A DNA stretch of 64,000 nucleotides from Clostridia bacterium. Its GTDB lineage: Bacteria > Bacillota > Clostridia > RUG12999. A program made the translations under genes and the position numbers. A model generated the notes under the pieces. That model saw only the letters and a program-made list of their open reading frames with translations, was not told the origin of the DNA and did no database searches. Positions 14,279 to 23,119 of this stretch are shown one piece after another (position 1 is the stretch's first letter; every line of letters starts with the position of its first letter). Location: contig JAFTSG010000003.1 of assembly GCA_017467445.1 (NCBI GenBank), forward strand, positions 75,753-139,752. Reading direction: 5' to 3'.

Positions 14279-14428
14279 ATGCAGATACGCGAAATGCTTG
14301 TGCCTGCTGTGCTGCTTTGCCCGCGCTGCGGATGCGTTATTTTAGTGGAATATCAAAATTACTGCAACAACTGCGCTCAGCACCTTAAATGGACTTATTT
14401 TCATAAAGCGAAAGTCCGTAATATGTAA
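14279..14428 (+). CDS. possible 49-aa zinc-ribbon peptide (CPRC...CNNC)
   Basis: Short ORF MQIREMLVPAVLLCPRCGCVILVEYQNYCNNCAQHLKWTYFHKAKVRNM in an otherwise empty gap. No convincing RBS. Confidence 0.2.
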   Translation: MQIREMLVPAVLLCPRCGCVILVEYQNYCNNCAQHLKWTYFHKAKVRNM

Positions 14429-14429
14429 G

Positions 14430-15023
14430 TCAGTACCAAAATCTTCTTTGGTTTTTATAAAGATATAAAAATCGCTTTTTTAAAGTTCTTCTTGCTATGT
14501 ACAGCTGCCTTTGCACAAAGAAAACATCAAGACCATAGCGTTCAGCAATTTCAATTTCGTTAAGCCTCCTGAATGCACGTTTTTTCAGTAAATTCCGCTG
14601 AAATGATGATAGCGAAGCGAAGGCAATATGTATACACGTTTTCCATTCTTTTTCAATGGCTATACGTTCCGGCAGAGCATATTTTGAATGTATAAGGTGA
14701 AGATGTATCGGCAATTCGCCGTGCTCTGCGTATTTTTTATATTCATCCGCCAACAGGGCTTTTGCAATTTCACATACCCATGTTGAATATTTGCTTCTTC
14801 CTTTAAAGAGCGAAAGCTTTTCATAACTTATTGTAAAAGCTTCGGCAGTAATATCATCGGCTGATATATATCCTTTGAACCTTCTCCATATTTTCTTTCT
14901 TACATATCCGTGCACCAATTTATAATACTTTTCGTAAAGTATTTCCCATGCGCCAATATCCCCTTTCAGCGTTTTTCTTACTAGCCTGTAATCTTCTCTC
15001 CAAATCCTTTTGTCTATAATCAT
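14430..15023 (-). CDS. sigma-70 family (ECF-type) sigma-factor-like protein
   Basis: Region-2-like DDITAEAFTISYEKLSLFKGRSKYSTWVCEIAKALLADEYKK and region-4-like LSSFQRNLLKKRAFRRLNEIEIAERYGLDVFFVQRQLYIARRTLKK. The start is placed at ATG 15021-15023, 7 nt after a GAGGA RBS and 4 nt after the upstream stop. Confidence 0.7.
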   Translation of the reverse strand: MIIDKRIWREDYRLVRKTLKGDIGAWEILYEKYYKLVHGYVRKKIWRRFKGYISADDITAEAFTISYEKLSLFKGRSKYSTWVCEIAKALLADEYKKYAEHGELPIHLHLIHSKYALPERIAIEKEWKTCIHIAFASLSSFQRNLLKKRAFRRLNEIEIAERYGLDVFFVQRQLYIARRTLKKRFLYLYKNQRRFWY

Positions 15024-15027
15024 ATTT

Positions 15028-16110
15028 TTATCCTCGCAAAATCTTATTACACCAGCTGTCCCATGTTTCTGTCTGAATATCGAGAACGGAATAAGAATCC
15101 GCAAGATGCCGCCCGTGGCTGTCCGCCAGGTCATCTGTTGTTCTTCCTGCAATAAGAACGTAAAAGAATTTCACATCCTTATTCGGGTCAACGCCCAGTT
15201 TGTAGTCGGGACCGCGAAATGCACCATAAGGCTTTCTGCCATTCTTAACTTCAGCAAGAACTTCATGAACAAACCTACGGTATGTTTCATAATGACCTTT
15301 TATCCACTCTGCCCGTTCATTTAACTGTTCTCTACCTTCTGCCGCAAAAGATGTAAAGGCTTTATAATGGTTTTTTCTGAAAATCCCTCGTTTTGCACCT
15401 TTTATTTCAATTAGGTACACATTCATACGGGAACGCCCCGTAAAGACGGCAAAATCAACCCTGCCGCTGCCTACCGGAAATTCGCAAAAACAAACATATT
15501 CCTCCGGCGAATAAGCATAAAACTCCCCTAAAAGAGATAAATCCTCTTTTAAAAATTCTGCAAGCTCTCGTTCTGTAGGATTTTTATCCAGTAATGCTTT
15601 AAACTCGTGTTTGGAATGCTGATTTAACTTTATCTCCAGCCGACTTTGTGTAATTTCTGGATTTTCCGAATATTCAAATTGCTCTATTGCCGGAATCCCG
15701 TTCAGCGCATCGTAAATTTCTTTCATAACGCGCTCGTCATTTTTATATAAATCAAATTCGCTTTCTTCACAATCCAGTATTTTCAATATCTTTGCAAAAG
15801 AAATTGATCTCCATATTGGTCTTTCGTCTTCATCAAAACTAACCATAGAAAATTTTTCTTCCCGGTCAAATGGGCGCGGATAATGTTCTATAATTTGAGC
15901 ATTTTGCGGTATTTTTTGCAATTCTGTAAGCTGCTCCAGTATAAGTTCCAGCGCATTTGTAACCGATGTTGAACGAGCTTCTTCCGATAAGTCAGTAAGT
16001 ACAATATGAATTTTTGATTCCTTGTTTGTAAATATTCTGACTCTGCACAAAGAAGCTTCTGACGCAAATCCATATGTTTTAAATCTGAAAACAAAATCTG
16101 TAATTTTCAT
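15028..16110 (-). CDS. Shedu-like (DUF4263-type) PD-(D/E)xK nuclease, putative anti-phage effector
   Basis: 360 aa. C-terminal half ERELAEFLKEDLSLLGEFY...GSGRVDFAVFTGRSRMNVYLIEIKGAK...EQL matches the D...E.K core and the preceding E..FL....LG helix that I recall for SduA/DUF4263. Confidence 0.6.
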   Translation of the reverse strand: MKITDFVFRFKTYGFASEASLCRVRIFTNKESKIHIVLTDLSEEARSTSVTNALELILEQLTELQKIPQNAQIIEHYPRPFDREEKFSMVSFDEDERPIWRSISFAKILKILDCEESEFDLYKNDERVMKEIYDALNGIPAIEQFEYSENPEITQSRLEIKLNQHSKHEFKALLDKNPTERELAEFLKEDLSLLGEFYAYSPEEYVCFCEFPVGSGRVDFAVFTGRSRMNVYLIEIKGAKRGIFRKNHYKAFTSFAAEGREQLNERAEWIKGHYETYRRFVHEVLAEVKNGRKPYGAFRGPDYKLGVDPNKDVKFFYVLIAGRTTDDLADSHGRHLADSYSVLDIQTETWDSWCNKILRG

Positions 16111-16178
16111 AGTTCACTCCATCAATAATATTTTTTATATTGTACCATTTTCGACAAAATCTGTAAATATGTTAACAT

Positions 16179-16210
16179 AAAAAAACCCTTGCATTTTTGC
16201 AAGGGCTTTT
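16179..16210 (-). terminator. terminator of the cotJ operon
   Basis: CCCTTGCA-TTTT-TGCAAGGG hairpin with a flanking A-run and T-run, 7 nt after the cotJC stop. Confidence 0.8.
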
Positions 16211-16216
16211 ATAGAT

Positions 16217-16609
16217 TTATCTGTCTGAATTTGTCATACAACGTTTTTGCTGAAGTCTGTCAAGAGCTTCACCGAAACGCTGGAAATGCACAATTTCTCG
16301 CTGACGCAGGAATTTGATAACGTCGTTTACGTCTGGGTCATCCGATACTGTAAGGATATTATCATACACCACTCTTGCTTTTTGTTCTGCTGCGAGGTCC
16401 TCTACTAAATCAGCAATCGGATCGCCCATTACGTTAATTGCCGTAAGTTTGAGCGCTTCACCGCCGGCATTTACCGGATACACACCTTTGCCGTGGTCAA
16501 TATAATATGCACCAAACGGGCTGTTTTCAATTTCTGATTCTTTCAGGTTTTTGGTAAGCTGATGCACAATTGTGCCTACCATTTCAAGATGTGCAAGTTC
16601 CTCTGTTCC
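16217..16609 (-). CDS. cotJC: cotJC (Mn-catalase-family spore coat protein), 3' segment of a split gene
   Basis: The frame opens at the junction with (G)TEELAHLEMVGTIVHQL... and continues through DLAAEQKARVVYD...FLRQREIVHFQRFGEAL, as in Mn catalases/CotJC. It has no start of its own except an internal Met. Confidence 0.85.
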   Translation of the reverse strand, partial: GTEELAHLEMVGTIVHQLTKNLKESEIENSPFGAYYIDHGKGVYPVNAGGEALKLTAINVMGDPIADLVEDLAAEQKARVVYDNILTVSDDPDVNDVIKFLRQREIVHFQRFGEALDRLQQKRCMTNSDR

Positions 16610-16931
16610 TGTGTTCTATACCATTTTGCTCTGTTGAAAAAAATTGAAAATTTTATTTTCAGCAATAGCACAGAAAAGTATGATTTTGAAAAATATTTTA
16701 AAAAAATTTTATATTGGACATAAATTTAGACAGTGTCGTTGTTATTAATATAGAGAGGTATATATACTAGTATAAAATAATAATACAACTTAACATTCTT
16801 AAACAACTCTTAATCAGATGGGGATTGTATCTATTAGGTATTTTGCAAGGTTGGGTGGTTGTGATATGTGTATAAAGTAGCCGTAGTCAATACGTTTTTT
16901 TGTTTTAATCAGGTAAATATTTGTAAAAGTA

Positions 16932-16960
16932 TTGAAAAAGATAAAGTTTTGTGTTAAAAT
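16932..16960 (+). promoter_or_regulatory. sigma-A-type promoter
   Basis: TTGAAA (16932-16937), 17-nt spacer, TGtTAAAAT extended -10 (16955-16960). Confidence 0.55.
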
Positions 16961-16967
16961 ACAATAG

Positions 16968-17092
16968 TCACGTAGTTAAATATTCTATTATACACCATAA
17001 GGCTTGCGTTGGTAAAAACGCAGGCTTGCTGTTCGTTCCCTTATGGTGTAATGGATTAACTGCGTGACAACAGGAGCATAGCCTCGTTTTTC
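16968..17092 (+). promoter_or_regulatory. structured 5' leader (nested helices), candidate cis-regulatory RNA of unknown class
   Basis: P1 is 16968-16979 / 17056-17067 (12 bp, one G-U). P2 is 16991-17002 / 17039-17050 (12 bp, perfect). P3 is 17003-17009 / 17018-17024. Lies between a promoter and a terminator. Confidence 0.4.
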
Positions 17093-17093
17093 G

Positions 17094-17121
17094 TGCGTGG
17101 GCTTATGCCCACGCATTTTTT
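17094..17121 (+). terminator. intrinsic terminator/attenuator upstream of the 17142 CDS
   Basis: TGCGTGGGC-TTAT-GCCCACGCA followed by TTTTTT, then GGAGG RBS and ATG. Confidence 0.75.
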
Positions 17122-17141
17122 AATTTATGGAGGTTTTGCAA

Positions 17142-18041
17142 ATGAAAAGATTTCTAAGTGTTTTGATGGTTGTGATATTATCAGTAAGTGTATTTATTGT
17201 TCCTGTATCAGCCAATAATGAGTTGTCAGTTGTGCTGAATGGTGAACCATTAGAATTTGACGTTCAACCACAAATAATTAATGGTCGTACCATGGTTCCT
17301 ATGCGTAAAATCTTTGAAGAATTAGGCGCAACTGTAGATTGGGATGGTAGCATACAAAAGATAACTGCAAAAAAACAAGATATAACAGTTGTTATGCAGA
17401 TTAATAGCAATATATTATCAGTAAACGGAAACAATGTTACATTAGATGTTCCACCGCAATTAGTTAATGGAAGAACTCTTGTTCCTGTAAGAGCGGTAGC
17501 GGAAAGTTTTGATATACATGTATTATGGGATGAAGTTTATAATAATGTTGTTTTATCTACATACATTCCTCTTGAAACATCAATACAAGCATTCAATTAT
17601 CTAGGTGCTTGGTTACTTGAGAATGGAAAAGTTTTTGGAGAATATGTATATGTAGGTTGGGAAGTAGTAGAGGGTGTTAATGCAGAAATTCGTTGTTATC
17701 CTGAAAGTGGGAATATAGCATTTTATCTTGATAGTTATCAAAATGACGGCATAATGACTGCAATAAATATATGGCCGACTTATGATGGAAACGATGTCTA
17801 TGCAACATATATTAGCGGTTCTCAAACTTGCAGAATTGATGGAAATATTAATATGGCGATGCATACCCCAAATTATCCACTTGCTTATAGAGAGTGTGAG
17901 CCAGGGGAATTTGAAACAACATACAACTTACTTGATGATACAAGAGAGAGAATTAATGTTTTGTTAAATGAAGTTGACTTGCTTTTAGCATTTGAGAATT
18001 CAGGTGTTAATTTAAATACGTTAGGTTTTAAAAAATATTAA
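17142..18041 (+). CDS. secreted protein with copper-amine-oxidase-N-terminal-like (stalk) repeats
   Basis: Signal peptide MKRFLSVLMVVILSVSVFIVPVSA. Two repeats of LNGEPLEFDVQPQIINGRTMVPMRKIFEELGATVDWD / VPPQLVNGRTLVPVRAVAESF. Start chosen 8 nt after GGAGG. Confidence 0.7.
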   Translation: MKRFLSVLMVVILSVSVFIVPVSANNELSVVLNGEPLEFDVQPQIINGRTMVPMRKIFEELGATVDWDGSIQKITAKKQDITVVMQINSNILSVNGNNVTLDVPPQLVNGRTLVPVRAVAESFDIHVLWDEVYNNVVLSTYIPLETSIQAFNYLGAWLLENGKVFGEYVYVGWEVVEGVNAEIRCYPESGNIAFYLDSYQNDGIMTAINIWPTYDGNDVYATYISGSQTCRIDGNINMAMHTPNYPLAYRECEPGEFETTYNLLDDTRERINVLLNEVDLLLAFENSGVNLNTLGFKKY

Positions 18042-18062
18042 TATTTTATTTCTTCATGGGCG

Positions 18063-18091
18063 TTGACTATAGTATTTAATGGAGGTATAAT
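18063..18091 (+). promoter_or_regulatory. sigma-A-type promoter
   Basis: TTGACT (18063-18068), 17-nt spacer, TATAAT (18086-18091). Confidence 0.6.
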
Positions 18092-18097
18092 ATATAT

Positions 18098-18257
18098 AAG
18101 TAAATTATATGAATATATGATTTGCTTGTAATTATGGTATCGAGTGCAACGGCACGGGCTTAATGATTATTTAAGTTGGTGGCGGTGGCGGTGGTTTCTT
18201 TAGTGGATGCTAAAGATATTAAATAATGAATAGAGCATAAGCCTGTATTGGCTTTAA
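18098..18257 (+). ncRNA. candidate small RNA or leader (no ORF longer than 16 codons)
   Basis: Lies between a near-consensus promoter and a strong terminator. Contains a GGTGGCGGTGGCGGTGG micro-repeat. Confidence 0.35.
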
Positions 18258-18289
18258 GTGTCGTTACAATCGGTAACGGCACTTTTTTT
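18258..18289 (+). terminator. intrinsic terminator
   Basis: GTGTCGTTAC-AATCG-GTAACGGCAC followed by TTTTTTT. Confidence 0.8.
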
Positions 18290-18324
18290 GTGCAGAAATA
18301 TTTTTATAAGGGGGGGTAACGGAT

Positions 18325-18819
18325 GTGTTACATAGCGGTATTTTCAAAGAGATAGTTAAGAGAAATAAGAATTATAATGGTATCAGCATCAAGTTTACAA
18401 CTGTTGCAGTATTTATCAGGAGAGTTCTTGACTTGTTAGGGTTGTATAGTGTAGCGGATGCGGAAAATGGTATGGTTAGAGCAATTAAGGATGATGAAGA
18501 ATTTGAGATTATTGTTGACAGGACAAATCAAAGGATAGTGTTAGAGGCAGACCTTTGGAGTGTTGGCACAAGAGCCTTTGCAAAGAAGAAAGTCCAGACG
18601 CTTGAAAGACTTAACAGATATAATCAAAATTTAAACTTCGGGTATTGTATGCTTGTTGGGTTTAAGGTTATATACCATACAACAGAAAGTATCTATATGG
18701 GTGTAGATGATGCGGAAGATATGGCAGTTGCAGACGGGTTGATAAGGCATTATATGATTGATACAAAGTTAATAAAAGATATGGTATTTTCTGATGGACT
18801 TGATTGCGTCGGCACGTAA
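18325..18819 (+). CDS. hypothetical protein (element cargo)
   Basis: 164-aa ORF with a GTG start 7 nt after a G-rich RBS (AAGGGGGGG). I recognise no family. Confidence 0.45.
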   Translation: MLHSGIFKEIVKRNKNYNGISIKFTTVAVFIRRVLDLLGLYSVADAENGMVRAIKDDEEFEIIVDRTNQRIVLEADLWSVGTRAFAKKKVQTLERLNRYNQNLNFGYCMLVGFKVIYHTTESIYMGVDDAEDMAVADGLIRHYMIDTKLIKDMVFSDGLDCVGT

Positions 18820-19290
18820 GCGAAAGTGTTTGTTTAAAAGCGTTGGAAAATTTACGGTAATTTTTCAACCAACACAAATTTGCTGGATTTTCAGTAGGTA
18901 GATTTTTGAAATTTTAGTTATCGGATGCAAAAAGTGTCAAAAGTGTTGGTTTTAGTTCGGGAGTGGAATGTGAAAATTTGCAGATTATTTCAATCTTATT
19001 TATCTTATACCATTAAATAGTGGTCGCAGAAAATTAAGATTAAAGAAATCAACAAAAATTTGATTTTAACATCAAGAAAAGGTTGAAATTACGGCATTTT
19101 GTGATTTTAAAATTTGCATCGTGATTTTGTGTTGAAATGACAGTATTTTTATAAAATTACATAAAATTTGTGGTTAAGAGATGAAAAAAGAGAGTTCATA
19201 TATTTTAAGTTATGGGTACGTTCTACCTATACAGGCTACTTGTGAGGTTTGGCGTATTCAATAGATTTATTCATAAGGTAGGTGTTAAAT

Positions 19291-19881
19291 ATGGAATACG
19301 GTTATGTTCGTGTGTCAAGCAAAAGTCAGGCAGAAAATCATTCTCTAGCAGAGCAAGAACAGACAATCTTAGAAAAGTATCCTTCGGCAGAGATACGCAG
19401 AGAAGTGTTTACTGCTGCAAAAGACTTTAATAATAGACAGGTGTTTAATGACCTAATTGACAGGTTGACAGATGGGGATTGTTTGATAGTTTCCAAGATG
19501 GATAGATTTTGCCGTAATGTTCGCGAGGGGTTAGATATCATAGAACATTTGATGGATAAGGGTATTAAGATAGATATACTGAATTTAGGTGTTATAGATA
19601 ATACGCCTGTTGGCAGGTTAACTTATACAATCTTATTGTCTTTTGCAGAATTTGTGAGAAATATGATTGTAGAGCGTACACAAAGCGGTCGCGAACTTGC
19701 AAGACAAAAGGATGGGTACATAGAAGGCAGACCAAGAAAATTTAGCAACACACAACTCGCATTGGCGATGCAGTTGTTAGAAAACCATTCATATAAACAA
19801 GTTTCATCGATGACAGGTATATCAAAGAGTACACTACAAAGAGAAAAGAAAAGGACAGTTGACAAAAATAACAGGACATAA
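19291..19881 (+). CDS. small serine recombinase (resolvase/invertase family)
   Basis: [13 protein letters not shown] catalytic-Ser N-terminus, [19 protein letters not shown]-terminal HTH ([17 protein letters not shown]). ATG placed behind an AAGGTAGG RBS. Confidence 0.85.
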
Positions 19882-19993
19882 ATTTTAAAAAATTAACTAA
19901 AATCTAAAAAAATTTACTGATGAGAGCAAAACTGACTAAAATGCACACAGTTACCTTAAATTAAGTATCAATTCGTAAGGGAGGGTACTTAAA

Positions 19994-20212
19994 ATGGGTA
20001 GTGCATTAAGACAACCTTATAACGCATATACATCTATTGGTGGTGTTATGCCTATGGGAAATAAAGTTAATGTTGTTCTTTCAGATAAAGAGAAAGAGAA
20101 CTTAAATCACAGTCTTAAATCTTCTGTATATAAAGAATTATATAGAAAGTCTCTTATTACAGATAGAGAGTTAAGATTATTGTTAGAAAAAGCGCCTAAA
20201 TTTTTAAATTAG
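19994..20212 (+). CDS. small hypothetical protein (candidate accessory or directionality factor)
   Basis: 72-aa ORF with a GGGAGGG RBS, directly upstream of the large recombinase gene. Confidence 0.4.
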   Translation: MGSALRQPYNAYTSIGGVMPMGNKVNVVLSDKEKENLNHSLKSSVYKELYRKSLITDRELRLLLEKAPKFLN

Positions 20213-20225
20213 GGGCTGAGATATC

Positions 20226-20258
20226 GGAGTGGTTGCGTTATAATACAGTGACCACTCC
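20226..20258. promoter_or_regulatory. inverted repeat enclosing a TATAAT box upstream of the large recombinase gene
   Basis: GGAGTGGT (20226-20233), 17-nt spacer, ACCACTCC (20251-20258). TATAAT at 20239-20244 lies in the spacer. Confidence 0.35.
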
Positions 20259-20299
20259 ACAAATACATTAGAAAAATAGTTAAGTGAGGTTAAAGAATT

Positions 20300-21982
20300 A
20301 TGGTAGATTTGAAAAGATTAAGTAGTAGTAACGTAGTAGCATTTAGTCCTTTTAATGTGTTAAATGATGCAAAGGCGTTGCGCGTAGCCGCTTATGCAAG
20401 GGTTAGTACAGATAAAGATGACCAAGCCAATAGTTTTGAAAGTCAGGTTAAATATTTTACAGAGTTTATTGACAAACAAGAAAATTGGCAGTTGGTTAAG
20501 GTTTATAGTGATGATGGTATTTCAGGAACATCAACCAAAAATCGTGTTGGGTTTAACTCAATGATAGATGATGTTACGGCAGGTAAAATTGATTTTATTA
20601 TAACAAAAGAGGTTTCGCGCTTTGCCAGAAATACAGTTGATACATTGCAGGTAACAAGAGACCTGAAAGAAATGGGTGTTGGAGTTTACTTTATGCTTGA
20701 TAACATTAACACACTTGACAAAGATGGCGAACTTCGCTTGACGCTTATGGCATCTCTTGCACAAGAAGAAAGCAGAAAGACATCAGAACGCGTCAAGTGG
20801 GGGCAGAAAAGACAAATGGAAATGGGTGTTGTCTTTGGTCGCAGCCTGCTTGGGTATAAAGTAGTTGAAGGTAAGTTATATCTGGTTGAAGAAGAAGCAG
20901 AAATTGTTAGAAAGATATTCCATAAATACCTCAATGAAGGTAAAGGTACTCATATAATAGCAAGGGAACTTAAAGAAGAAGGTATCAAGACGTATAACCC
21001 TGATGGTCGTGCAAAATATAAGAATGATTGGTCAAACACACAGATTTTGCGTGTTCTTCGCAATGAGAAATATGTTGGAGATTTGGTGCAAAAAAAGACT
21101 TGGACACAAAACTTTTTAGACCACAAGAAAAGGTATAACAGGGATAATGAAGAGATGGTTAGAATTGAAAACCACCATCCAGAGATTGCAATTATATCAA
21201 GGGATATGTGGAATGCGACACAAGCGGAGTTGCAACGTCGTACGACAACGGCAGAACAGAAATCTAAACATAGTAATAGGTATTGGGCATCAGGTAAAAT
21301 CTATTGTGGGGTATGTGGCGAAAGATTTGTAAACAAAATAAAAAAGACATCAGCAGGCACATCAAGGGCTTGGAATTGTATGAACCATATCAAACCACAC
21401 GCTTTTCGTAATGCAGAGTGTTCTATGTCAGAATGGGCAAGTGACAGGAGTATGAAGAATATTGTTCTTTATATCCTTAATATGTTAGTTGAGAGCAAAG
21501 ATGAACTTAAGACAGAGATTGTAAAGGAGATTTCGCAGTTAAATCTCGAACAAAAAGTTAAGTCAACAGATGATATTCAAGATAAAATTGACAGATTAGA
21601 ACAGAAAAAATTAAAATTGATTGACATTAGAACAGAGGGTGAAATCTCAAAGGAAGATTTTATGAAAAAGATAACTCAATTTGAAACAGAGATTTCAGAG
21701 TTGAAGATACAGTTAGAAGAAATAAAAGAACTTGCTACCACTAAACAACGTCAGCAGGATAGGATGGATAGTATTATCAAGGAAATTGACAAGGTATTGC
21801 AGTTAGATAGTGAAGATTTGGATGAACTGTTAGGAACAGTTACACAAAGTATAACAGTTTATGAAGGTCATACTGTTGTAGTAAGGCTTAAGGATGTACC
21901 TTTTAATTTCAAGGTAGTCTATAAGTCAACAGGTAAATTAGATACATATAGAACAGAGATTTTAAGTCTTGAAGTGGTATAA
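20300..21982 (+). CDS. large serine recombinase (SpoIVCA-like)
   Basis: 560 aa. RVAAYARVSTDKDDQANSFESQ catalytic N-terminus, YSDDGISGTS, recombinase domain, Cys-containing zinc-ribbon region and a C-terminal coiled coil. Confidence 0.9.
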   Translation: MVDLKRLSSSNVVAFSPFNVLNDAKALRVAAYARVSTDKDDQANSFESQVKYFTEFIDKQENWQLVKVYSDDGISGTSTKNRVGFNSMIDDVTAGKIDFIITKEVSRFARNTVDTLQVTRDLKEMGVGVYFMLDNINTLDKDGELRLTLMASLAQEESRKTSERVKWGQKRQMEMGVVFGRSLLGYKVVEGKLYLVEEEAEIVRKIFHKYLNEGKGTHIIARELKEEGIKTYNPDGRAKYKNDWSNTQILRVLRNEKYVGDLVQKKTWTQNFLDHKKRYNRDNEEMVRIENHHPEIAIISRDMWNATQAELQRRTTTAEQKSKHSNRYWASGKIYCGVCGERFVNKIKKTSAGTSRAWNCMNHIKPHAFRNAECSMSEWASDRSMKNIVLYILNMLVESKDELKTEIVKEISQLNLEQKVKSTDDIQDKIDRLEQKKLKLIDIRTEGEISKEDFMKKITQFETEISELKIQLEEIKELATTKQRQQDRMDSIIKEIDKVLQLDSEDLDELLGTVTQSITVYEGHTVVVRLKDVPFNFKVVYKSTGKLDTYRTEILSLEVV

Positions 21983-22057
21983 AGAAAATGGCAAAGCATA
22001 CTGATTTCAGTAGGCTTTGCCTATCTTTGTATAAAGGAGCAAAATCGTCGCTGATAG

Positions 22058-22243
22058 ACCTATATCCGTCAGGATTGCTTTTGCCATATCGTCTTCCATA
22101 TGGTAACGTTGCGACAGATAGCGAAGTGATGCCGCAATTTCACCATTTGGTCCACCGTACTGTGAAATGATGTAAGCGGCAAGTTTAGGGTTTGTATTTT
22201 TGATTTTTATCGGGTACTGCAATTTTTTAAGATAATTCCACAT
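22058..22243 (-). CDS. cotJC: cotJC, 5' segment of a split gene
   Basis: MWNYLKKLQYPIKIKNTNPKLAAYIISQYGGPNGEIAASLRYLSQRY...AILTDIG is a Mn-catalase/CotJC N-terminus. After G62 the frame runs into element DNA and stops at 22007. Confidence 0.85.
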
Positions 22244-22259: not shown

Positions 22260-22505
22260 TCAATCCTTTTCCCAAGGCCACGGACCGTCCATCCATGCCC
22301 ATCTTTCGGAATTCATATTGTTTTCACTTCTGAGAGGACCATAATCATCCTCGTATTCTTCTACAAGGTCTTCAAGCTTTTCGGCAACAGATTTGTGCAT
22401 TGCCAATGCCTTTTTGTCGGTAGGATTGGTGTCCAGAAACAGGTTTAGTTCTTTTTCTACAAATGCATATTCCATTATTTCCTGTAACAAATCTTCTCTT
22501 GACAT
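22260..22505 (-). CDS. cotJB: spore coat protein CotJB
   Basis: 81 aa. LLQEIMEYAFVEKELNLFLDTNPTDKKAL...YEDDYGPL matches CotJB in size and pattern; positioned between cotJA and cotJC. Confidence 0.8.
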   Translation of the reverse strand: MSREDLLQEIMEYAFVEKELNLFLDTNPTDKKALAMHKSVAEKLEDLVEEYEDDYGPLRSENNMNSERWAWMDGPWPWEKD

Positions 22506-23119
22506 CAGTCTTCCTCCTTCATTTCATAAACATTTTTCGGCAAATCCAGAATTTTGAAGAGTGTTCCCCGTTTAAGTGCTCTGTGAGGTTCATTAACTCC
22601 TTCAAAATCATGTGGTTTTACACAGGCATATCCTGTTCGCATACAACCGCACGGCTGCATCGGTTTTGGGGACTCGGGTCTTTCCGGTCTTTGTGGAGGA
22701 CGGTTTTCCTGCATTGGTGGACGATTTTCCGGTCTTTGCGGAGGACGGTTTTCCTGCATCGGAGGACGATTTTCCGGTCTTTGCGGAGGACGGTTTTCCT
22801 GCATTGGTGGACGATTTTCCGGTCTCTGCGGAGGACGGTTTTCCGGTCTCTGGGGGCGCATCTGCCCGTTATTTCCGTTATTACCATTATTGCCGTTTGG
22901 CGGACGCTGTGGGCGTTGCTGACTTATTGTGGGAACACTCCACATATCGTCCTCCTCGCTACCTTCCGGCGTGCCATGAATAGAACGAAATCCGTTATTC
23001 ATATCATAGTTATACATATCATCTGTCATTCCACGACCTGTAATGTCCATAAGTCGTCTCATGATTTCATCTGCACCGTTAGTTCTATCGTTTCCGTTAT
23101 TATACATAACTACCTCCAT
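22505..23119 (-). CDS. cotJA: spore coat-associated protein CotJA with an expanded proline-rich repeat region
   Basis: C-terminal GYACVKPHDFEGVNEPHRALKRGTLFKILDLP resembles the CotJA signature. First gene of the cotJABC order. Confidence 0.7.
   Translation of the reverse strand: MEVVMYNNGNDRTNGADEIMRRLMDITGRGMTDDMYNYDMNNGFRSIHGTPEGSEEDDMWSVPTISQQRPQRPPNGNNGNNGNNGQMRPQRPENRPPQRPENRPPMQENRPPQRPENRPPMQENRPPQRPENRPPMQENRPPQRPERPESPKPMQPCGCMRTGYACVKPHDFEGVNEPHRALKRGTLFKILDLPKNVYEMKEED
22686..22866. repeat. 45-bp tandem repeat, 3 full copies plus a partial one, inside cotJA
   Basis: Units start at 22686, 22731, 22776 and 22821 (GGTCTTTGCGGAGGACGGTTTTCCTGCATYGGWGGACGATTTTCC). Encodes ENRPPQRPENRPPMQ on the minus strand. 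Confidence 0.9.

What the first reader, a model, noticed from the sequence alone, without database searches (positions are those of the whole stretch)
14430..16110. Shedu-like DUF4263 nuclease translationally coupled to an ECF-type sigma-like protein
ORF 15028-16110 has the SduA-type C-terminal module: E..FL....LG helix, GRVDFAVF, and LIEIKG forming the PD-(D/E)xK core. Its roughly 170-aa N-terminal region is unrecognisable to me. The stop (15028-15030) is followed 4 nt later by the ATG of a 197-aa protein with clear sigma-70 region 2 and region 4 signatures. The RBS of that protein (GAGGA) lies inside the nuclease gene, so the two are an operon. Shedu is normally described as a single-gene system, and I do not know of a sigma-factor partner. 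The pair lies in a 2-kb accessory gap next to the cotJ locus. It could be a Shedu variant with a transcriptional arm, or a sensor/regulator for it.
Basis: partly seen in the sequence, partly recalled or inferred. Interest (0 to 1): 0.7.

Follow-up and report, generated by a model that had tools for sequence, protein, structure and literature searches.

The report
Shedu nuclease with dedicated sigma-factor partner
A known type of anti-phage DNA-cutting enzyme (Shedu) is here encoded in a tight two-gene unit with its own small RNA-polymerase sigma factor. The same pairing recurs in about a dozen unrelated gut-bacterial genomes, which suggests an undescribed Shedu variant linked to transcription.

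Summary
ORF 15028-16110(-) is a genuine SduA: Pfam SduA_C scores 64.6 bits, and the PADLOC SduA model PDLC00403 scores 413 bits over the full length. All PD-(D/E)xK motifs are intact. ORF 14430-15023(-) is a two-domain ECF-type sigma factor: TIGR02937 scores 58.6 bits, and all 23 significant Foldseek hits are ECF sigmas. The genes are 4 nt apart, with a GAGGA ribosome-binding site inside sduA. One sigmaA-type promoter lies upstream.

The pairing is not chance. Relatives of this sigma sit within 25 nt of, or overlap, an sduA in 11 other distinct loci with different flanking genes. Eight have the order sduA->sigma and three have sigma->sduA. On the SduA tree the pairing looks ancestral to the gut-Clostridia clade, with repeated loss.

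The link is not exclusive. Other members of the sigma family sit next to a PDC-M35B-like gene plus a 495-aa gene, or next to a TIR gene.

No paper found links Shedu to a sigma factor.

The mechanism is inferred, not shown. SduA occupies the place an anti-sigma factor normally holds, so the two proteins probably form a complex that couples DNA sensing to transcription.

Verdict: a new variant of a known kind; interest about 0.6.

The parts
16181..16210 (-). Intrinsic terminator of the upstream cotJC 3' fragment. It marks the upstream boundary of the cassette.
   Evidence: 13-bp stem followed by a T-run; sequence read.
16139..16167 (-). SigmaA-type promoter of the sduA-sigma operon: TTTACA, 17 nt, TACAAT, with a TG extension.
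   Evidence: Matches 10 of 12 consensus positions plus TG. Near-consensus sigmaA-type promoters occupy the same position in L077, L007, L009 and L013.
16117..16120 (-). Ribosome-binding site (GGAG) of sduA.
   Evidence: Read from the sequence.
15028..16110 (-). sduA, encoding a 360-aa Shedu nuclease. It has an N-terminal alpha/beta domain (about residues 1-112), a helical linker, and a C-terminal PD-(D/E)xK domain.
   Evidence: PF14082 at 64.6 bits. PADLOC PDLC00403 at 413 bits over the full length. AlphaFold2 model with pLDDT 91.5.
15055..15576 (-). SduA_C (DUF4263) nuclease domain, residues 179-352. It carries motif II D219 (15454-15456), motif III E235 and K237 (15400-15408), and motif IV Q262 (15325-15327).
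   Evidence: motif definitions.
15031..15035 (-). Ribosome-binding site (GAGGA) of the sigma gene. It lies inside the last codons of sduA.
   Evidence: Read from the sequence.
14430..15023 (-). Gene for a 197-aa ECF-type sigma factor. Sigma2 spans about residues 5-100, a disordered linker spans 103-114, and sigma4 spans about residues 118-195.
   Evidence: TIGR02937 at 58.6 bits. Full-length matches to AlgU and SigW sequences in the PDB. AlphaFold2 model with pLDDT 85.3. All 23 significant Foldseek hits are ECF sigmas.

Best explanation
This is a two-gene variant of the Shedu anti-phage system.

**Shown.** A complete, catalytically intact SduA nuclease gene and a gene for a dedicated, fast-evolving ECF-type sigma factor form one operon. 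A housekeeping-type promoter drives it. The unit is inherited and moved as a cassette in gut and rumen Clostridia.

**Inferred.** ECF sigmas are almost always co-transcribed with the protein that holds them inactive. SduA is the only conserved partner here, and in three loci it sits in the canonical sigma->partner order. The two proteins therefore most likely form a complex in which SduA keeps the sigma inactive. SduA is an autoinhibited oligomer in the characterised systems. When SduA is activated by invading DNA and changes conformation or oligomeric state, it cuts DNA and releases the sigma to redirect RNA polymerase. The defence nuclease would thereby gain a transcriptional output. The direction of control could instead be the reverse, with the sigma modulating SduA.
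For: - **Identities.**
- **Operon.** The gap is 4 nt, the ribosome-binding site lies inside sduA, there is a single upstream promoter, and no terminator separates the genes.
- **Conservation.** A member of the sigma family lies immediately downstream of sduA in L073, L077, L007, L009, L013, L090 and L023, and immediately upstream in L081, L146 and L128.
- **Junctions.** They are ATGA overlaps or gaps of 6-25 nt.
- **Flanking genes differ.** The neighbours are cotJC/yitT here, Zip/TetR in L073, ABC transporter/glycoside hydrolase in L077, and an ABC-transporter gene downstream in L081.
- **Specificity.** SduA-adjacent sigmas that were not used to build the profile score 104-205 bits. That places them at about ranks 6-65 among 1.84 billion representatives, 72,416 of which are ECF-like.
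- **Tree pattern.** Sigma-linked SduAs are spread across the gut clade and include its deepest branch (L009). This suggests an ancestral pairing with later losses.
- **No other regulator.** No anti-sigma gene is present in the cassette. Sister sigmas are followed by a 155-aa protein with a hydrophobic segment plus a 495-aa protein, or by a 499-aa membrane protein, in the usual anti-sigma position.
- **Promoter type.** Strong sigmaA-type promoters upstream imply constitutive synthesis, and therefore post-translational control.
- **Precedents from established knowledge.** In type III-E CRISPR, the Csx30-RpoE module couples a defence enzyme to an ECF sigma. B. cereus Shedu is autoinhibited through its N-terminal domain.
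Against: - No protein-protein interaction was tested.
- About half of the closest SduA relatives lack the sigma: L006/L075, L074, L078, L011/L079, L008, L010 and L012. No sigma remnant was detected in them. SduA therefore does not need the sigma.
- Several pairs look decayed. L073 sduA has an in-frame stop, L013 sduA is truncated, and the L007 sigma is frameshifted. These may be MAG assembly errors or signs of weak selection.
- No surface patch of SduA is specifically conserved in sigma-linked copies.
- No target promoter or ECF-type motif was found.
- All four sigma relatives whose context was looked up from the sigma side lack an adjacent sduA.
Confidence: 0.45

Rival explanations
1. The sigma is a positive regulator of expression. 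It transcribes the cassette itself, or other defence genes, for example to keep Shedu expressed when a phage shuts down sigmaA-dependent transcription. It does not bind SduA.
For: ECF sigmas are commonly autoregulated (established knowledge). Relatives of this sigma lie beside other defence-type genes: a PDC-M35B-like gene at 34 bits and TIR_2 genes. This would fit a general role as a defence-gene regulator.
Against: The operon and its relatives carry near-consensus sigmaA-type promoters, as do sigma-less sduA genes such as L006. No shared ECF-type -35/-10 motif was found. The sigma gene is usually the second gene. A constitutively made, unregulated sigma would give no signal-dependent control.
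Confidence: 0.2
2. The sigma-like protein does not act as a transcription factor. It is a structural, DNA-binding or decoy subunit of the nuclease complex. It could resemble KELA in KELShedu, or it could act as bait for phage proteins that target sigma factors or RNA polymerase, and so gate SduA activity.
For: A two-component Shedu with a dsDNA-binding partner exists (PMC12577705). The sigma evolves much faster than SduA, at 22-59% identity against 46-69% between the same genome pairs. That is as expected for a protein in direct conflict with phage factors. Pfam does not detect region 4.
Against: The full two-domain ECF architecture is retained, and the best structural matches are functional ECF sigmas. 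KELA is not reported to be sigma-like.
Confidence: 0.17
3. The adjacency has no functional meaning. A small ECF gene merely hitch-hikes beside sduA in one lineage, or the pair is a decaying remnant.
For: The sigma is often lost. Some copies of either gene are disrupted. The sigma family has other neighbours elsewhere.
Against: There are twelve distinct loci with different flanking genes, two gene orders, and overlapping stop/start codons. SduA divergence reaches 35% identity, and the sigmas are drawn from the top ~65 of 72,416 ECF-like representatives. The window copy has both genes intact, with its own promoter and ribosome-binding sites.
Confidence: 0.06

Closest known systems
Shedu (SduA; B. 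cereus B4264 and E. coli systems; PADLOC SduA, Pfam PF14082)
   Same: It has the same C-terminal DUF4263 PD-(D/E)xK nuclease, with motifs II, III and IV intact. It has a variable N-terminal domain plus a helical linker. PADLOC would call the gene Shedu.
   Different: Shedu is described as a single-gene system. The published neighbourhood survey lists restriction-modification systems, BREX, transposons and prophages as neighbours, but no sigma factor. Here a sigma gene is translationally linked to sduA. This subfamily is too distant from the solved Shedu structures to match them by sequence or by Foldseek.
KELShedu (KELA + KELB, E. coli)
   Same: It is a two-component Shedu, in which a DUF4263 nuclease works with a small co-encoded DNA-binding partner and forms a complex with it.
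   Different: KELA is described as a dsDNA-binding protein, not a sigma factor. The partner here is a full ECF-type sigma. No homology between the two partners was tested.
Type III-E CRISPR-Cas (Craspase) Csx30-Csx31-RpoE module
   Same: A defence enzyme is genetically coupled to an ECF-type sigma, so that target sensing can feed into transcription (own knowledge). The NCBIfam model NF041236 for that sigma exists and gives a weak hit to the L009 sigma.
   Different: The hit is only 16.7 bits against a cut-off of 100, so this is not a member of that family. No protease, Csx30 or Csx31 is present. The partner is a nuclease.
Classical ECF sigma/anti-sigma pairs (RpoE-RseA, SigW-RsiW, AlgU-MucA)
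   Same: The sigma has the same two-domain fold, and these are its best sequence and structure matches. It is co-transcribed with a single conserved partner.
   Different: No anti-sigma domain or membrane anti-sigma gene is present. The partner is a cytoplasmic nuclease, and the sigma gene is usually second rather than first.
PADLOC candidate system PDC-M35 (component B)
   Same: In sister branches of this sigma family, the sigma gene is followed by a ~155-aa protein that matches PDC-M35B (34 bits, E 6.5e-9 in L089). The sigma family therefore recurs beside candidate defence genes.
   Different: That module is absent from the window. Neither the sigma nor the 495-aa protein matches any PADLOC model.

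Membership tests
Shedu / SduA | DUF4263 (SduA_C, PF14082) domain above the curated threshold | tested here: met
   64.6 bits against a cut-off of 27. PADLOC SduA model PDLC00403 scores 413 bits over the full length.
Shedu / SduA | PD-(D/E)xK catalytic motifs II (D), III (ExK) and IV (Q) | tested here: met
   D219, E235, K237 and Q262 are invariant in 40 homologues. They correspond to D249, E264, K266 and Q295 of B. cereus Shedu.
Shedu / SduA | Variable N-terminal regulatory domain joined to the nuclease by a helical linker | tested here: met
   The AlphaFold2 model (pLDDT 91.5) has an alpha/beta domain at residues 1-112, helices at 116-198, and the nuclease core from about residue 200.
Shedu / SduA | Fold similarity to solved Shedu structures | tested here: inconclusive
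   Foldseek of the full-length model against the PDB gave no hit at E<=1e-3. The profile search against PDB sequences gave none. The low pTM of 0.61 for a multi-domain model may explain this.
Shedu / SduA | Single-gene system | tested here: not met
   A conserved, translationally linked sigma partner is present.
Shedu / SduA | Anti-phage activity and homo-oligomeric autoinhibited state | not testable with these tools
   This needs phage challenge experiments and biochemistry.
ECF (group 4) sigma-70 factors | Sigma2 and sigma4 domains only, about 200 aa, above the family HMM threshold | tested here: met
   TIGR02937 scores 58.6 bits against 42.9, covering residues 25-184. The AlphaFold2 model has two helical domains and a disordered linker. 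All 23 Foldseek hits at E<=1e-3 are ECF sigmas, aligned over 160-190 columns.
ECF (group 4) sigma-70 factors | Co-transcribed cognate anti-sigma factor | tested here: not met
   The cassette holds only sduA and the sigma gene. No anti-sigma domain was found.
ECF (group 4) sigma-70 factors | Autoregulatory ECF-type promoter upstream of its own operon | tested here: inconclusive
   Only sigmaA-type promoters were recognised, and no shared motif appeared in 13 upstream regions. The sample is small and the target motif is unknown.
ECF (group 4) sigma-70 factors | Binds RNA polymerase core and directs promoter-specific initiation | not testable with these tools
   This needs biochemistry.
Type III-E CRISPR-associated RpoE-like sigma (NF041236) | Score above the family cut-off (100 bits) | tested here: not met
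   The window sigma does not list this family among its 25 best hits. The L009 homologue scores 16.7 bits.

The most novel reading that the evidence does not exclude
SduA doubles as the anti-sigma factor of its partner. Sensing of foreign DNA by the Shedu nuclease would then release an ECF sigma that reprograms RNA polymerase. That would give a single-protein innate immune nuclease a built-in transcriptional alarm. More broadly, this fast-evolving ECF lineage would be a portable signalling module shared by several defence systems (Shedu, PDC-M35-like and TIR).
Probability: 0.25. Interest if true: 0.8.

Novelty: new variant of a known kind. Interest (0 to 1): 0.6.

Why it matters
Shedu is treated as a single-protein system, and its N-terminal domain is thought to be its only regulator. 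A conserved sigma-factor partner would add a second layer, either a transcriptional output or a new mode of control.

The only well-known case of a defence effector coupled to an ECF sigma is type III-E CRISPR. A second, unrelated case would suggest that defence-triggered transcriptional reprogramming is more widespread.

The system is small (two genes, 1.7 kb) and directly testable. The same sigma lineage also flanks other candidate defence genes, so it could serve as a marker for finding new systems in gut Clostridia.

Tried and rejected
- **SduA fold search.** Foldseek of the SduA model against the PDB gave no significant hit. The profile search against PDB sequences gave none. This added nothing about the N-terminal domain.
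- **Alternative upstream partner.** hhalign of the 172-aa upstream partner family from Oscillibacter, Dysosmobacter and Lawsonibacter (A3) against the sigma alignment was not significant (E 0.72). Those proteins cannot be called sigma-like.
- **Phage and plasmid carriage.** Scans of viral contigs with both alignments found no relatives. tblastn against plasmids found only generic ECFs and one distant SduA. There is no evidence that the cassette is phage- or plasmid-borne.
- **Metagenome scan with the sigma alignment.** It was not possible, because no stretch was conserved enough.
- **Sigma pseudogene remnants.** tblastn against the sigma-less loci found none.
- **Shared promoter motif.** A k-mer search found only AT-rich words. 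TTGTCGA occurs in 3 of 13 upstream regions and was judged unconvincing.
- **Differential conservation.** Comparing sigma-linked with sigma-less SduAs revealed no distinct patch.
- **How discrete the sigma family is.** The word-indexed search suggested a sharply bounded family. The exhaustive search corrected this, showing scores that decline gradually into the general ECFs.
- **Chance adjacency.** Considered and rejected on the conservation evidence.

Full report
**1. The observation**

On the minus strand, an ORF at 16110-15028 encodes 360 aa and ends in TAA at 15030-15028. Four bases later (AAAT), an ATG at 15023 opens a 197-aa ORF that ends at 14430. GAGGA at 15035-15031 lies inside the first gene, 7 nt upstream of that ATG.

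Upstream of the first gene is the terminator of the cotJC fragment (16210-16181). A near-consensus sigmaA-type promoter follows at 16167-16139: TTTACA, 17 nt, TACAAT, with a TG extension. A GGAG ribosome-binding site lies at 16120-16117. No terminator-like site lies between the two genes.

**2. Identity of the two proteins**

*The 360-aa protein.*
- It passes Pfam SduA_C (PF14082) at 64.6 bits against a cut-off of 27, over residues 179-352.
- It matches PADLOC SduA model PDLC00403 end to end, residues 1-359 of 360, at 413 bits.
- In a 40-sequence alignment (A1), D219, E235, K237 and Q262 are invariant. They correspond to motifs II, III and IV of B. cereus Shedu: D249, E264/K266 and Q295 (10.1101/2023.08.10.552793).
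- AlphaFold2 gives a confident model (pLDDT 91.5). It has an N-terminal alpha/beta domain, a helical linker and the nuclease core.
- Neither Foldseek nor a profile search of PDB sequences connects the model to solved structures. This subfamily is remote from the B. cereus and E. coli proteins that have been studied.

*The 197-aa protein.*
- It passes NCBIfam TIGR02937 (sigma70-ECF) at 58.6 bits against a cut-off of 42.9, over residues 25-184.
- It passes Pfam Sigma70_r2 at 29.5 bits against a cut-off of 24.
- It aligns along its full length with AlgU and SigW in the PDB.
- Its model (pLDDT 85.3) has two helical domains separated by a disordered linker at residues 103-114.
- All 23 Foldseek hits at E<=1e-3 are ECF sigma factors.
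- It matches no PADLOC model.

**3. Is the pairing more than chance?**

Three sources of related sequence were examined: 67 genome loci, 80 metagenome loci, and contigs encoding individual homologues.

A profile of the sigma family finds a member directly beside sduA in 11 further distinct loci.
- Downstream of sduA: L073, L077, L007, L009, L013, L090 and L023.
- Upstream of sduA: L081, L146 and L128.

NCBIfam confirms that the L013, L023 and L009 partners are ECF sigmas.

The junctions are ATGA overlaps in L007 and L023, an overlap in L077, and gaps of 6-25 nt elsewhere.

Flanking genes differ in every case:
- cotJC and yitT in the window;
- Zip and TetR in L073;
- ABC transporters and a glycoside hydrolase in L077;
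- an ABC-transporter gene on the downstream side in L081.

The two genes therefore travel together as a cassette.

The sigmas diverge faster than the nucleases, at 22-59% identity against 46-69% between the same genome pairs.

An exhaustive profile search of 1.84 billion representatives finds 72,416 ECF-like proteins, of which only 41 reach E<=1e-30. Scored with the same profile, SduA-adjacent sigmas that were not used to build it reach 205, 202, 197, 128 and 104 bits. That corresponds to about ranks 6-65. The adjacency is therefore specific to one ECF lineage.

On a neighbour-joining tree of SduA, sigma-linked genes are scattered through the gut-Clostridia clade (48% identity to the window copy or higher). 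They include its deepest branch, L009. A separate clade, L146 and L128, carries the sigma upstream. The simplest reading is an old association with repeated loss.

**4. Limits of the association**

- **Sigma-less relatives.** Seven distinct close relatives lack the sigma: L006/L075, L074, L078, L011/L079, L008, L010 and L012. No remnant of it is detectable. None of the ~120 more distant SduA loci, mostly Proteobacteria, has it apart from L146 and L128.
- **Damaged copies.** L073 sduA has an in-frame stop, L013 sduA is truncated relative to L090, and the L007 sigma is frameshifted. These are metagenome assemblies, so errors cannot be excluded.
- **Other partners, seen from the sigma side.** All four further family members whose context I could read lack sduA.
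  - P0056 and P0059 are followed by a ~155-aa and a ~495-aa protein.
  - P0058 is followed by a 499-aa multi-pass membrane protein.
  - P0055 stands alone, next to a divergently transcribed TIR_2 gene.
  - The ~155-aa protein matches the PADLOC candidate component PDC-M35B (34 bits, E 6.5e-9 in L089).
  - In the sigma tree these form one clade nested among the SduA-linked sigmas.

The lineage as a whole is therefore found beside defence-type genes, but it is not exclusive to Shedu.

**5. How it probably works**

*Shown:* an intact nuclease, an intact two-domain sigma, one operon, a constitutive-looking sigmaA-type promoter, and conserved linkage.

The same promoter type precedes the operon in L077, L007, L009 and L013, and also precedes sigma-less sduA in L006. 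I found no shared ECF-type promoter motif. This argues against the idea that the sigma exists to switch the operon on. It implies that the sigma is made continuously and must be controlled after translation.

ECF sigmas are normally co-transcribed with the protein that sequesters them (established knowledge). Here the only conserved partner is SduA. In three loci the order is the canonical sigma-then-partner. In sister lineages that position is held by small hydrophobic or membrane proteins.

*Inferred:* SduA and the sigma form a complex. B. cereus Shedu is an autoinhibited tetramer that rearranges on activation. A rearrangement triggered by foreign DNA could free the sigma to redirect RNA polymerase. 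This would be conceptually like Csx30-RpoE in type III-E CRISPR systems (own knowledge).

The reverse direction of control is a live alternative, in which the sigma acts as a gate, decoy or DNA-binding subunit like KELA of KELShedu (PMC12577705). The sigma's rapid divergence would suit a protein in direct conflict with phage factors.

I could not test binding.

**6. Comparison with what is known, and novelty**

The nuclease is a member of Shedu by every sequence criterion tested. The sigma is an ECF-type sigma by domain content and fold, but it lacks a recognisable anti-sigma partner.

The published neighbourhood survey of 5,499 Shedu genes reports restriction-modification systems, BREX, transposons and prophages, but no sigma factor. 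Full-text searches for Shedu with 'sigma factor', and for DUF4263 with ECF, returned nothing relevant. Two-component Shedu variants exist (KELShedu), but with a different kind of partner.

I therefore classify this as a new variant of a known kind.

**7. Context**

The cassette sits between housekeeping and sporulation genes, not in a defence island. Its GC content is similar to that of its neighbours. It is not found in viral or plasmid collections. The host is an uncultured spore-forming member of the Clostridia from ruminant gut metagenomes.

**8. Verdict**

The mechanism is inferred only. Interest is 0.6. The finding is a small, testable, previously undescribed pairing with a plausible but unproven link between a defence nuclease and transcription.

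Noticed in passing
window 16217-22243 (element about 16610-22006): The spore-coat gene cotJC is split. The 5' part (22007-22243, minus strand) ends in ...LTDIG. The 3' part resumes with TEELAHLEM... at about 16608. A ~5.4-kb insert of lower GC content separates them. The insert carries a 560-aa large serine recombinase (20300-21982) right at one end, a small resolvase (19282-19881), and a secreted protein with a Cu_amine_oxidN1 domain (17127-18041). The junctions are GATATAGG|T and AACACAGG|A. It looks like a skin-like element that would be excised during sporulation. The same arrangement occurs in L001 and L002.
   Followed up: partly
window 14279-14428 (+): A 49-aa ORF with two CxxC pairs (CPRC...CNNC), resembling a zinc ribbon. 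It converges on the end of the sigma gene and was not called as a gene in the metagenome records.
   Followed up: no
window 22681-22849 (within cotJA, 22505-23119, minus strand): A 45-nt tandem repeat (3.6 copies, 94% matches) encodes PQRPENRPPMQENRP-type repeats in the CotJA-like protein.
   Followed up: partly
L008 4859-5987; L010 5008-5980; L012 5003-5964: In Oscillibacter, Dysosmobacter and Lawsonibacter, the same SduA clade has two conserved upstream genes (~150 aa and ~172 aa) instead of the sigma. Neither has a Pfam, NCBIfam or PADLOC match. The 172-aa protein ends 18-36 nt before sduA. hhalign against the sigma family was not significant. They may be an alternative partner module.
   Followed up: partly
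L082 4001-6602; L089 4001-6641; L086 4001-6111; L084 2836-4621: Other members of the same ECF lineage head operons with a ~155-aa protein that matches PDC-M35B plus a ~495-aa protein of unknown function, or with a 499-aa multi-pass membrane protein. In L084 the sigma lies 176 nt from a divergently transcribed TIR_2 gene, and in L082 about 930 nt from one.
   Followed up: partly
L011 7268-9177; L079 5267-7161: In Christensenella hongkongensis and related contigs, sduA is followed by two unknown proteins (~290 aa and 240 aa). They share an N-terminal motif, FVAYLDILGF in one and FVAYIDILGV in the other. Neither matches a PADLOC model.
   Followed up: no
L073 3698-4777; L013 6001-6972; L007 7083-7657: Several sduA-sigma pairs are damaged. 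L073 sduA has an in-frame stop at about codon 68, L013 sduA has lost its last ~45 codons relative to L090, and the L007 sigma is frameshifted. These could be real decay or metagenome assembly errors.
   Followed up: partly
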